Of a stretch of 35,687 nt of DNA, positions 9,930 to 10,703 are shown one piece after another. The DNA is from a virus (lineage: Duplodnaviria > Heunggongvirae > Uroviricota > Caudoviricetes). The stretch lies in IMG/VR virus record IMGVR_UViG_2690315992_000010. One strand, written 5' to 3'. A program made the translations under genes and the position numbers. The notes beneath the pieces are model-generated. The model ran no database searches and was not told the DNA's origin. It saw nothing but the letters and a program-made list of their open reading frames with translations. Positions within the stretch are counted from its first letter, which is position 1; each line of letters starts with the position of its first letter.

Positions 9930-10703
9930 TTATTTCTTGAAGTCTTCGCACATTCTACGAAGATCATATTTTGGATGGCCTAAGCCAATCATGATTGTTC
10001 GTAATCTTGCCGCGCCGGGCTTACCGTTTTCGATCCACACACGACGAATTTCATCGTAATGTTGCCAACATGCTTGACCTTTCGATTCCCTAATTGCTTT
10101 AGTTCTGTTAGCCTTTTCTACAGGATCGGTAATCTTTCGACCAGATAAAGCCTTACTAATTCTTGCGCGTGTTTCTTCGGTGACTATTGCGCCGTATCGA
10201 GGATTATTAGCGCCTTTCATTGCAGCGGACATTTTAGCTAACGTTTCTGGATTAGTTATCTTCCTTCCTCGTTTTGGGCTTACCCGTCCAAACATCGGGT
10301 TTCCTTCACCTGCGTTGTTCTTTCTAAATTTCTCGATTGTTTCTGGCTTATGTTTCTTTCCGTACAGTGGGTGATGTTCACCACCATCAAAACCACCGAC
10401 ACCACCAGGAGCAATATTAAGACATACACCACGCCCCCATTTTTCGCGTGCTGCCTCCACTAACAGAATTTCACATTCAAACGCTTCCTCGGCAGTATCA
10501 AACAATTTTGAGCGAACAACTTCAAATTCATATATCGGGGTTTCTGATTCTTTATTTTTACGCTTCATCATTTTAATAACTTTACCCGACCCCACATATC
10601 CATCGTCTAGATTTGTAGTTGTTCTTTTTCCGACGTAATGATAGATTTTACCAGAGCGATTAGATTTAATAGTGGTGTGATAAACGTAATGGAATTTTCG
10701 CAT
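9930..10703 (-). CDS. GIY-YIG homing endonuclease with NUMOD3-type DNA-binding repeats
   Basis: N-terminal YVY...GKIYHYVGK (GIY-YIG variant), then repeated GxxHxxETxxKxSxAxKG-like modules (HPLYGKKHKPETIEKF; GNPMFGRVSPKRGRKITNPETLAKMSAAMKG; NNPRYGAIVTEETRARISKAL). Inserted between tail genes. Confidence 0.75.
   Translation of the reverse strand: MRKFHYVYHTTIKSNRSGKIYHYVGKRTTTNLDDGYVGSGKVIKMMKRKNKESETPIYEFEVVRSKLFDTAEEAFECEILLVEAAREKWGRGVCLNIAPGGVGGFDGGEHHPLYGKKHKPETIEKFRKNNAGEGNPMFGRVSPKRGRKITNPETLAKMSAAMKGANNPRYGAIVTEETRARISKALSGRKITDPVEKANRTKAIRESKGQACWQHYDEIRRVWIENGKPGAARLRTIMIGLGHPKYDLRRMCEDFKK

What the first reader, a model, noticed from the sequence alone, without database searches (positions are those of the whole stretch)
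9930..10703. Freestanding GIY-YIG homing endonuclease inserted within the tail tip gene cluster
The gene sits between distal tail protein genes and the K-like/J-like genes, with its own RBS. Such endonucleases are selfish elements; the insertion marks a likely recombination hotspot and may affect downstream tail gene expression.
Basis: partly seen in the sequence, partly recalled or inferred. Interest (0 to 1): 0.5.

Follow-up and report, generated by a model that had tools for sequence, protein, structure and literature searches.

The report
Selfish nuclease gene in prophage tail
An 848-bp optional cassette in the tail-gene cluster of an E. coli prophage encodes a T4 SegE-type GIY-YIG homing endonuclease; this is an ordinary kind of selfish element, but its empty sites in related prophages are unusually well defined.

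Summary
Pfam detects only four NUMOD3 DNA-binding repeats. Three other results show the N-terminal 105 residues are a SegE-type GIY-YIG nuclease domain:
- A family profile hits the I-TevI catalytic domain (E = 2.6e-10).
- BLASTP against T4 SegE gives 39% identity.

The window is a prophage of E. coli FDAARGOS_946. The gene and a 74-nt leader form an 848-bp insert placed exactly between the stop codon of the tail hub gene and the intact ribosome-binding region of the next tail gene (DUF6950). Six of 5,426 complete E. coli genomes carry the insert, always at this site. About 51 carry the uninterrupted junction. Salmonella prophages carry diverged copies (57-69% aa identity) at the same site.

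The catalytic domain is under strong purifying selection, while the DNA-binding middle is swapped between alleles. The leader folds into a conserved hairpin that buries the Shine-Dalgarno sequence, as in T-even endonuclease genes. The last 40 nt of the hub gene are a local diversity peak.

Verdict: a new member of a known kind. Nuclease activity and the cleavage site are untested.

The parts
9930..10703 (-). Endonuclease ORF, 257 aa. It has a SegE-type GIY-YIG catalytic domain (aa 1-105), four NUMOD3 repeats (about aa 108-200), and a C-terminal three-helix domain (about aa 208-257).
   Evidence: - establish the ORF, the NUMOD3 repeats and the homologues.
- family profile against I-TevI catalytic domain 1LN0, E = 2.6e-10, and against I-TevI DNA-binding domain 1I3J, E = 1.4e-3.
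- AlphaFold model with N-terminal domain pLDDT about 90.
- 39% identity to T4 SegE.
- PADLOC HEase models match both the N-terminal and the C-terminal domain.
10704..10777 (-). 74-nt leader of the cassette, lying between the hub stop codon and the endonuclease ATG.
   Evidence: It is absent from the empty alleles. A leader of 69-74 nt is present in all 16 insert-bearing loci examined.
10709..10755 (-). Long RNA hairpin in the leader. The outer stem is AAAGCCCUCAA / UUGAGGGCUUU. Its 3' arm contains the Shine-Dalgarno-like GAGGG (10713..10717), 9 nt upstream of the AUG.
   Evidence: -: dG = -23.8 kcal/mol, z = -3.5, and none of 200 shuffles fold as well.
- the four sequence variants fold at -23.8 to -25.8 kcal/mol, z = -3.8 to -5.6.
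- the stem is kept through G:C to A:U, and to C:G (substitution plus a 1-nt insertion). The inner stem differs in sequence but stays paired.
10778..10786 (-). Left copy of the 9-bp direct repeat (AAAAAATAA), which is the last two Lys codons plus the stop of the hub gene.
9930..9938 (-). Right copy of the 9-bp direct repeat (AAGAAATAA), which is the last two Lys codons plus the stop of the endonuclease. It is identical to the hub gene terminus in empty alleles.
   Evidence: - Searches show the repeat.
- in insert-bearing genomes, homology to the empty junction starts exactly at this AAGAAATAA.
- the sequence is invariant in 15 of the 16 loci examined. The exception is the frameshifted copy L027, whose reading frame ends early.
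9930..10777 (-). The whole optional cassette, 848 bp (one repeat copy, the leader and the ORF).
   Evidence: Alignment with the empty allele L002 shows a single 848-bp gap. The insert is 841-851 bp in other loci.
10778..11431 (-). Upstream neighbour: tail hub / baseplate-hub N-terminal attachment domain protein (DUF2163), 217 aa. Its last ~80 nt (10778..10857) are a local diversity hotspot and the candidate target region.
   Evidence: - Searches identify the gene.
- mean pairwise difference is 0.27 in the last 40 nt and 0.14 in the next 40 nt, against about 0.05 in the rest of hub and Dit.
9884..9929 (-). 46-nt intergenic region holding the GGAGG ribosome-binding site of the downstream gene. 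It is unchanged between insert-bearing and empty alleles.
9464..9883 (-). Downstream neighbour: DUF6950 tail protein, 139 aa by the RefSeq start. The longer 167-aa ORF call that overlaps the endonuclease is probably not used.

Best explanation
The cassette is a free-standing homing endonuclease gene of the T-even Seg type, most like SegE. It resides in the late tail operon of a temperate siphovirus-like prophage of E. coli and Salmonella.

**Shown**
- The protein has a GIY-YIG nuclease fold, with the family's conserved Tyr, Tyr-x-Gly, Glu and Asn. It is joined to NUMOD3 repeats and a helical C-terminal domain, which is the I-TevI/Seg architecture.
- The gene and its 74-nt leader form an 848-bp optional insert at one exact site: immediately after the hub gene stop codon and 46 nt before the next tail gene.
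- The insert is rare in E. coli. It is found at the same site in diverged Salmonella prophages.
- The catalytic domain is under purifying selection.

**Inferred**
- The gene has no recognisable promoter, so it is transcribed as part of the late tail message.
- Translation is kept low by a conserved hairpin that buries its Shine-Dalgarno sequence.
- When an insert-bearing phage replicates alongside a related insert-less genome (a co-infecting phage or a resident prophage), the enzyme binds the uninterrupted hub/DUF6950 junction through its NUMOD3 and helical domains and cuts nearby.
- Recombinational repair from the insert-bearing genome then copies the cassette and some flanking sequence into the cut allele.
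- The insert-bearing allele is immune because the cassette splits the junction.
- Repeated rounds of cutting and repair, plus selection for resistant sites, would explain the hypervariable, mosaic 3' end of the hub gene and the module swapping inside the endonuclease gene.
For: **Fold and family**
- The family profile hits I-TevI catalytic domain 1LN0 at E = 2.6e-10 and the I-TevI DNA-binding domain at E = 1.4e-3.
- BLASTP against T4 SegE gives 39% identity over aa 4-105, E = 7e-14.
- E78 and N96 are invariant, and Y8, Y23, G25 nearly invariant, across 40 homologues.
- PHROG and PADLOC 'homing endonuclease' models match.
- The review PMC2988022 lists SegE as an experimentally active GIY-YIG enzyme.

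**Optional insert at a fixed site**
- There is a clean 848-bp gap against empty alleles.
- Six of 5,426 genomes carry the insert, all at the same site.
- 56 genomes match the junction probe. About 51 have the uninterrupted junction.
- Salmonella and other homologues at 57-81% aa identity sit at the same site.

**Function maintained**
- dN/dS in the catalytic domain is 0.03-0.2, with saturated dS between the E. coli and Salmonella lineages.

**Horizontal movement and recombination**
- Between the window and L004, the catalytic module has dS = 0.015 (1 of 69 synonymous sites). The adjacent hub gene has dS = 0.26 (31 of 139), and the central NUMOD3 region is only 56% nt identical.
- Diversity peaks at the hub 3' end.

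**Regulation**
- The conserved hairpin hides GAGGG.
- The same arrangement is described for I-TevI, I-TevII, I-TevIII, segB and mobE (PMC2988022).
- No sigma-70-like promoter was found near the gene.

**Free-standing**
- No Rfam family, and so no group I intron, matches the region.
Against: - No cleavage or mobility has been shown. The target site is inferred only from the insertion point.
- The Pfam GIY-YIG and SegE_GIY-YIG models do not score this protein on their own.
- The equivalent of the catalytic Arg27 of I-TevI cannot be placed with confidence. The profile alignment puts an insertion there. The residue after Y-x-G-K is R in E. coli copies but H in relatives and in SegE.
- The pattern of one site and sporadic presence could also arise from one old insertion followed by repeated precise loss through the 9-bp direct repeat.
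- E. coli BS74R-D holds an insert-bearing and an empty prophage with 98% identical flanks, and the empty site is unconverted.
- The hub 3' hypervariability occurs in both insert-bearing and empty alleles. It could simply reflect a weakly constrained C-terminal tail.
- The synonymous differences at the junction are not strictly linked to the insert: Salmonella insert-bearing loci L022 and L025 have AAGAAATAA on both sides.
Confidence: 0.75

Rival explanations
1. The cassette is a vertically inherited, no longer mobile accessory gene. It was inserted once in the ancestor of this prophage group and has since been lost repeatedly by deletion between the 9-bp direct repeats. The protein may be kept for another role, such as cutting competitor phage DNA (marker exclusion) or acting as a DNA-binding regulator.
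For: - The cassette is flanked by a 9-bp direct repeat, which is perfect in L022, L023, L025 and L026.
- Some empty alleles have junctions that look like products of a crossover between the repeats: TCT AAG AAA TAA in L017 and L019, and TCT AAA AAA TAA in L007.
- Divergence of the endonuclease between the E. coli and Salmonella lineages (57-69% aa) is similar to that of neighbouring tail genes (68-89%).
- The empty prophage co-resident in BS74R-D is unconverted.
- RefSeq names the protein only a DNA-binding protein.
Against: - Purifying selection on the nuclease domain, with invariant catalytic Glu and Asn, argues for a retained nuclease function.
- The catalytic module is almost identical (dS = 0.015) between backgrounds whose hub genes differ at dS = 0.26, which needs recent horizontal transfer of at least part of the cassette.
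- All junction differences are third-codon-position changes, so ordinary synonymous drift explains them without invoking deletion.
Confidence: 0.15
2. The conserved leader hairpin acts mainly as an intrinsic transcription terminator or attenuator, or as an RNA-stability element, placed after the hub gene. On this reading the cassette's main effect on the phage is to lower expression of the downstream tail tip genes, rather than to control translation of the endonuclease.
For: - In Salmonella loci the stem is followed by a U-rich run, and an A-run precedes it (UUUUCUUCU in L011, L012 and L014; UUUUCUUAU in L015, L016, L022 and L025).
- The hairpin is very stable (-24 to -26 kcal/mol) and conserved.
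Against: - In the window only UUU follows the stem before CC.
- The consensus terminator scan did not flag the hairpin.
- A strong terminator upstream of the essential J-like tip gene would be costly to the phage.
- The hairpin's 3' arm coincides exactly with the only Shine-Dalgarno-like motif at the right distance from the AUG. This is the arrangement documented for T-even endonuclease genes.
Confidence: 0.2
3. The gene encodes a catalytically dead GIY-YIG-like DNA-binding protein, a decayed endonuclease that survives as a passenger.
For: - Pfam GIY-YIG models fail to score the protein.
- The position of the catalytic Arg is uncertain.
- One relative, L027, is split by a frameshift.
Against: - The motifs shared with active T4 SegE are intact: H-x-V-Y-x-T-T, Y-x-G-K, D-G-Y-x-G-S-G-K, the conserved Glu, and N-x-x-P-G-G-x-G-G.
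- Strong purifying selection acts across saturated synonymous divergence.
- Full-length ORFs are present in 15 of the 16 loci examined.
Confidence: 0.07

Closest known systems
T4 SegE and SegE-like free-standing GIY-YIG endonucleases of T-even phages (Pfam PF19835 SegE_GIY-YIG)
   Same: - The catalytic domain is 39% identical to T4 SegE and shares the subfamily motifs, including N-L-x-D-G-Y-x-G-S-G-K.
- Full-length similarity of about 30% to many Seg-type genes of T4-like phages.
- It is free-standing, lies between two phage genes, and is sporadically present.
- T-even seg genes also sit inside structural gene clusters: segD lies between genes 23 and 24, and segC between 5.1 and 5.3 (PMC2988022).
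   Different: - The host element is a temperate siphovirus-like prophage with a serine recombinase, not a lytic T4-like myovirus.
- The protein is longer than SegE (257 against 205 aa) and has four NUMOD3 repeats, which the Pfam scan of T4 SegE did not report.
- The Pfam SegE model does not reach any reportable score on this protein.
- The cassette sits exactly at a stop codon, bounded by a 9-bp direct repeat.
I-TevI (intron-encoded GIY-YIG endonuclease of the T4 td intron)
   Same: - Translation is controlled by a hairpin that sequesters the ribosome-binding site.
- The insertion splits the presumed recognition region, which would make the carrier allele immune.
   Different: - It is not inside an intron.
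- Pairwise sequence similarity is undetectable.
- No zinc finger was found.
- No late promoter was identified inside the hairpin.
- The Arg27 equivalent is unresolved.
Other hairpin-regulated free-standing endonuclease genes (T4 segB; Aeromonas phage Aeh1 mobE)
   Same: They lie in long polycistronic late or middle transcripts, with an RNA hairpin over the ribosome-binding site (PMC2988022).
   Different: - mobE is an HNH enzyme.
- Those enzymes cut hundreds of bp or more away in a neighbouring gene, and carrier genomes are protected by sequence differences.
- The cleavage site here is unknown.

Membership tests
GIY-YIG nuclease superfamily | Three-stranded sheet flanked by helices (beta-beta-alpha-beta-alpha core) superposable on known GIY-YIG domains. 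| tested here: met
   - AlphaFold model aa 1-100 has pLDDT of about 87-95 per 10-residue block (78 for aa 91-100), with element order E4-14, E20-29, H41-52, E58-68, H71-89.
- Foldseek's top hit is also 1ln0, but weakly (E = 0.19).
GIY-YIG nuclease superfamily | Sequence motifs: Tyr of 'GIY', Tyr-x-Gly of 'YIG', the catalytic Glu (E75 in I-TevI) and Asn (N90). | tested here: met
   - Y8, Y23 and G25 are nearly invariant, and E78 and N96 invariant, across 40 homologues.
- The profile alignment to 1LN0 lines up the family's conserved Tyr, Tyr-x-Gly, Glu and Asn columns with I-TevI's GIY, YVG, E75 and N90.
GIY-YIG nuclease superfamily | Catalytic Arg (R27 in I-TevI) following the YIG motif. | tested here: inconclusive
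   - The profile alignment places an 8-residue insertion of I-TevI at this point.
- This protein has K26-R27 after Y-V-G, but relatives and T4 SegE have H at the second position.
- Model coordinates could not be inspected residue by residue.
GIY-YIG nuclease superfamily | Match to the curated Pfam models (PF01541 GIY-YIG or PF19835 SegE_GIY-YIG) above their cut-offs. | tested here: not met
   - There is no hit even at E up to 10, for the full protein or for the isolated N-terminal domain.
- 17 and 16 of the 40 aligned homologues hit PF19835 and PF01541 respectively.
- T4 SegE itself passes PF19835 (36.5 bits against a cut-off of 25) and only just misses PF01541 (21.6 against 22.6).
I-TevI/Seg-type modular homing endonucleases | A C-terminal DNA-binding region built of NUMOD-type modules, joined to the nuclease domain by an extended linker. 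| tested here: met
   - NUMOD3 matches four stretches, E = 1.3e-15, 57.4 bits against a cut-off of 20.4.
- The profile matches I-TevI DNA-binding domain 1I3J at E = 1.4e-3.
- PADLOC HEase model PDLC03675 matches aa 169-256.
- The linker has low pLDDT and the C-terminus is helical.
Free-standing homing endonuclease gene (intronless homing) | Not embedded in an intron or intein, with its own start and stop between host genes. | tested here: met
   The ORF is intergenic. No Rfam family matches at gathering threshold across the window, or at E up to 1 in 9300..11600.
Free-standing homing endonuclease gene (intronless homing) | Sporadic presence or absence at one fixed genomic site among otherwise collinear relatives. 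| tested here: met
   - Six of 5,426 E. coli genomes carry it, all at the same site.
- About 51 genomes have the uninterrupted junction.
- Homologues at 57-81% aa identity from Salmonella and metagenome-derived assemblies sit at the same site.
Free-standing homing endonuclease gene (intronless homing) | Site-specific double-strand cleavage of the endonuclease-lacking allele. | not testable with these tools
   This needs purified protein and a substrate spanning the empty junction.
Free-standing homing endonuclease gene (intronless homing) | Super-Mendelian inheritance, with co-conversion of flanking markers, in mixed infections. | not testable with these tools
   - Only indirect signs are available.
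- The catalytic module has dS = 0.015 against dS = 0.26 for the hub gene between the window and L004.
- The flanks are mosaic and diversity peaks at the hub 3' end.

The most novel reading that the evidence does not exclude
The cassette may be a natural arms-race system. On this reading the swapped NUMOD3 and C-terminal DNA-binding modules of the endonuclease alleles are specificity variants, selected against the hypervariable 3' end of the hub gene (the target). The conserved leader hairpin would then also act as an attenuator that sets the ratio of hub to tip proteins, so the selfish element would have become part of tail-gene regulation in a temperate phage.
Probability: 0.12. Interest if true: 0.55.

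Novelty: new member of a known kind. Interest (0 to 1): 0.3.

Why it matters
- **Annotation.** The gene is currently labelled only as a 'NUMOD3 domain-containing DNA-binding protein', and standard domain models miss its nuclease domain. Recognising it as a SegE-type endonuclease corrects that label for a family found in E. coli, Shigella and Salmonella prophages.
- **A usable study system.** Homing endonucleases have mostly been studied in lytic T-even phages. This case has several features that suit experiments on homing between temperate phages and resident prophages:
  - a temperate-phage carrier;
  - dozens of natural empty sites that differ by a few bases;
  - several endonuclease alleles with exchanged DNA-binding modules;
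  - one strain that carries both a filled and an empty site.
- **Local diversity.** The element also explains a local patch of unusual sequence diversity in a tail gene.
- **Limits.** None of this changes how such elements are understood to work.

Tried and rejected
- **Direct sequence search against PDB.** The single protein found nothing meaningful. Only the family profile reached I-TevI.
- **Pfam GIY-YIG models.** They did not score the protein even at E up to 10 or on the isolated domain.
- **Megablast of the tail region against isolated phages.** No match. A protein search with the hub found only one distant homologue, in Escherichia phage DCP80, with no endonuclease next to it.
- **Insert-linked immunity polymorphism.** I first read the synonymous recoding of the last hub codons (TCG TCT AAA AAA in the window against TCA TCG AAG AAA in empty alleles) this way. 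I dropped it because some empty alleles (L007, L017, L019) and some filled Salmonella alleles (L022, L025) break the association.
- **Sigma-54 or T4-late-type promoter in the leader.** I considered the TGGCAC and AATAAATATA motifs. The spacing and sequence do not fit either consensus on inspection, and the sigma-70 scan found nothing near the gene.
- **Co-variation of DNA-binding module with hub 3' haplotype.** Among filled alleles, the same central module occurs with two different hub ends (window and L003), so there is no simple co-variation.
- **Group I intron or other known RNA.** Excluded by Rfam.
- **Defence-system membership.** PADLOC matched only its 'homing endonuclease' models.
- **Literature.** Searches for this element (NUMOD3 + prophage + homing; GIY-YIG + prophage + tail) found nothing specific.
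Full report
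**Observation**

The window contains an ATG-initiated ORF of 257 aa at exactly 9930..10703 on the minus strand. The window is 100% identical to a prophage of E. coli FDAARGOS_946 (NZ_CP065607.1). RefSeq annotates the same ORF there as a 'NUMOD3 domain-containing DNA-binding protein'.

The prophage lies next to a truncated hicB. Its genes, in window coordinates:

| Gene | Coordinates |
|---|---|
| Serine recombinase | 1481..3175 |
| M15 endolysin | 3710..4063 |
| J-like tip protein | 5718..9464 |
| DUF6950 | 9464..9883 |
| Endonuclease ORF | 9930..10703 |
| Hub N-terminal attachment domain protein (DUF2163) | 10778..11431 |
| Distal tail protein | 11431..11991 |
| Tape measure | 12042..14471 |
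| Tail tube | 15245..15715 |
| Protease-capsid fusion | 21037..23046 |
| Portal | 23093..24604 |
| Large terminase | 25182..27086 |

The 'K-like' label for the downstream gene rests on position only, because Pfam returns just DUF6950.

**Is it a GIY-YIG nuclease?**

This needed checking, because Pfam reports only NUMOD3 (four stretches, E = 1.3e-15). It reports neither PF01541 nor PF19835, even at E up to 10 on the isolated N-terminal domain. A single-sequence search of PDB also finds nothing. Four other lines of evidence agree that the domain is GIY-YIG:

1. A profile of 40 homologues hits the I-TevI catalytic domain (1LN0, E = 2.6e-10; 1MK0, E = 1.7e-8) and the I-TevI DNA-binding domain (1I3J, E = 1.4e-3).
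2. In that alignment E78 and N96 are invariant, and Y8, Y23 and G25 are nearly so. These columns line up with the GIY tyrosine, the YIG motif, E75 and N90 of I-TevI.
4. BLASTP against T4 SegE gives 39% identity over aa 4-105 (E = 7e-14) with shared subfamily motifs. SegE is listed as experimentally active in the review PMC2988022. PADLOC 'homing endonuclease' models match both the N-terminal domain and the C-terminal domain.

One open point is the equivalent of I-TevI Arg27, which the alignment does not resolve. The residue after Y-x-G-K is R here but H in SegE and other relatives.

**Is it an insertion?**

Yes. Alignment with the allele of E. coli ES2 shows near-identity on both sides and a single 848-bp gap. 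In coding orientation:

- Empty alleles read ...TGG CAT TCA TCG AAG AAA TAA TCCCTTCTCCC....
- The window reads ...TGG CAT TCG TCT AAA AAA TAA, then a 74-nt leader, then the ORF ending ...TTC AAG AAA TAA, then TCCCTTCTCCC....

The cassette starts immediately after the hub stop codon. It ends with a stop codon in the same context as the hub stop of empty alleles. The 46-nt region holding the GGAGG ribosome-binding site of DUF6950 is untouched.

The cassette is bounded by a 9-bp direct repeat (AARAARTAA, meaning Lys-Lys-stop of both genes). The repeat is imperfect here and perfect in four Salmonella loci. The right-hand copy, CAAGAAATAA, is invariant in 15 of the 16 loci examined, even where the C-terminal domain is only 45% identical. 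The exception is the frameshifted copy L027. With a 65-nt probe of the empty junction, homology in filled genomes begins exactly at that AAGAAATAA.

**Distribution**

- Only 6 of 5,426 complete E. coli genomes contain the gene, always at this site.
- 56 genomes match the junction probe, and about 51 have it uninterrupted.
- One strain, BS74R-D, has both a filled and an empty prophage with 98% identical flanks.
- Homologues at 57-81% aa identity, from Salmonella genomes and from unnamed sequencing-run assemblies, all sit between the same two genes.
- One copy is split by a frameshift.

**Evolutionary signals**

The catalytic domain is under strong purifying selection. dN/dS is 0.03-0.2, with saturated synonymous divergence between the E. 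coli and Salmonella lineages.

The gene is a mosaic:

| Comparison | Catalytic domain | Central NUMOD3 region | C-terminal domain |
|---|---|---|---|
| Window vs L004 (nt identity) | 99% | 56% | 85% |
| L014 vs L015, both Salmonella (nt identity) | 66% | 84% | 99% |

L024 combines an E. coli-type catalytic domain with a Salmonella-type C-terminal domain.

Between the window and L004, the catalytic module has dS = 0.015 (1 of 69 sites), whereas the adjacent hub gene has dS = 0.26 (31 of 139). At least that module has therefore moved between backgrounds recently.

Across 14 alleles, mean pairwise difference is 0.27 in the last 40 nt of the hub gene and 0.14 in the next 40 nt. It is about 0.05 across the rest of hub and Dit, and 0.03 just downstream of the junction. 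The haplotypes in this patch are shuffled among filled and empty alleles. This fits repeated cutting, repair and selection for resistant sites. A weakly constrained C-terminal tail of the hub protein would also explain it.

**Regulation**

No sigma-70-like promoter lies near the gene, so it is most likely read from the late tail transcript.

The leader folds into a long hairpin at 10709..10755 (dG = -23.8 kcal/mol, z = -3.5). Its 3' arm contains the only Shine-Dalgarno-like motif, GAGGG, 9 nt before the AUG.

All sequence variants keep the hairpin (-23.8 to -25.8 kcal/mol, z = -3.8 to -5.6). They do so through a G:C to A:U double change, a C:G variant made by a substitution plus a 1-nt insertion, and a differently sequenced but still paired inner stem.

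Hairpins that hide the ribosome-binding site are the documented control for I-TevI, I-TevII, I-TevIII, segB and mobE (PMC2988022). In the Salmonella loci the stem is followed by a U-rich run, so a terminator or attenuator role cannot be excluded.

**Mechanism proposed**

The cassette is a free-standing homing endonuclease.

- It is expressed at a low level from the late operon.
- Its product recognises the uninterrupted hub/DUF6950 junction of related insert-less genomes through the NUMOD3 and helical domains, and cuts nearby.
- Repair from the filled genome copies the cassette in.
- The filled allele is immune because the junction is split.

The fold, the architecture, the exact optional insert, the shared site across lineages, the selection pattern and the hairpin are shown here. 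Cleavage, the target position and super-Mendelian transmission are inferred.

The main rival is a single ancient insertion followed by repeated precise loss through the 9-bp repeats, with the protein kept for another role. Support for it comes from the repeat, from some junction variants and from the unconverted empty site in BS74R-D. The discordant divergence of the catalytic module and the retained nuclease residues argue against it.

**Comparison and novelty**

The closest characterised relatives are T4 SegE and the Seg-type genes of T-even phages. I-TevI is the structural reference. Seg genes inside structural clusters are already known, for example segD between genes 23 and 24.

The differences are the host element, four NUMOD3 repeats, the stop-codon-precise placement with a 9-bp repeat, and the failure of the curated GIY-YIG models to detect the domain. 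The host is a temperate, serine-recombinase prophage with no close isolated relative.

No paper on this element was found. It is a new member of a known kind. It is useful as an annotation correction and as a tractable natural system, but it would not surprise a specialist.

Noticed in passing
L003 and L017 (both E. coli BS74R-D, NZ_CP063332.1): One genome holds two related prophages, one with the endonuclease cassette and one with an empty site. Their flanks are 98.2-98.5% identical for at least 1.4 kb on each side, yet the empty site (..TCT TCT AAG AAA TAA TCCC) has not been converted.
   Followed up: partly
L027 2001-2767 (Logan ERR1880079): This copy of the endonuclease gene is split by a frameshift near codon 155 into 172-aa and 83-aa ORFs. 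It is either a decaying copy or an assembly error.
   Followed up: partly
window 10757-10777 compared with 10787-10812 (minus strand): The start of the cassette leader (UGAAACUAAAUGGCACACC) resembles the hub gene 3' end just upstream (GGAAAGCAAGUGGCAUUCG), matching about 12 of 19 positions by eye. A similar resemblance is seen in Salmonella loci. It could be a degenerate duplicate of the target, an operator-like site, or chance.
   Followed up: no
window 15804-19229 (minus strand): A 1141-aa fibre-like protein, with a Gp34 trimerisation domain and a Peptidase_S74 intramolecular chaperone, is encoded between the head genes and the tail tube gene. This is an unusual position for a fibre gene in a siphovirus-like module.
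   Followed up: no
window 21037-23046 (minus strand): A single 669-aa ORF fuses an S78 prohead protease domain (aa 40-162) to an HK97-type major capsid domain (aa 410-666).
   Followed up: no
window 1-3175 and L001 10446-13776: The prophage abuts a truncated hicB antitoxin gene and carries a large serine recombinase (1481..3175). This suggests integration into hicB. At least one related prophage (L009) sits at the same locus.
   Followed up: partly
L006 1-625 and L009 789-1486: IS1 copies interrupt or replace the J-like tip gene next to DUF6950 in two related prophages, one filled and one empty. Some of these prophages are therefore defective.
   Followed up: no
window 9464-9967 (minus strand): The mechanical ORF call for the DUF6950 gene (167 aa) extends upstream into the end of the endonuclease gene. 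RefSeq, and the position of the GGAGG site, favour the 139-aa start at 9883. In empty alleles some annotations use a longer start that overlaps the hub gene.
   Followed up: partly
L028 (Escherichia phage DCP80, PQ671644.1, 13477-22121): The only isolated-phage record with a homologue of the hub protein (43% aa identity) is classified as a T4-like Straboviridae phage. That is odd for a siphovirus-type tail tip module and may point to a chimeric or mislabelled record.
   Followed up: no
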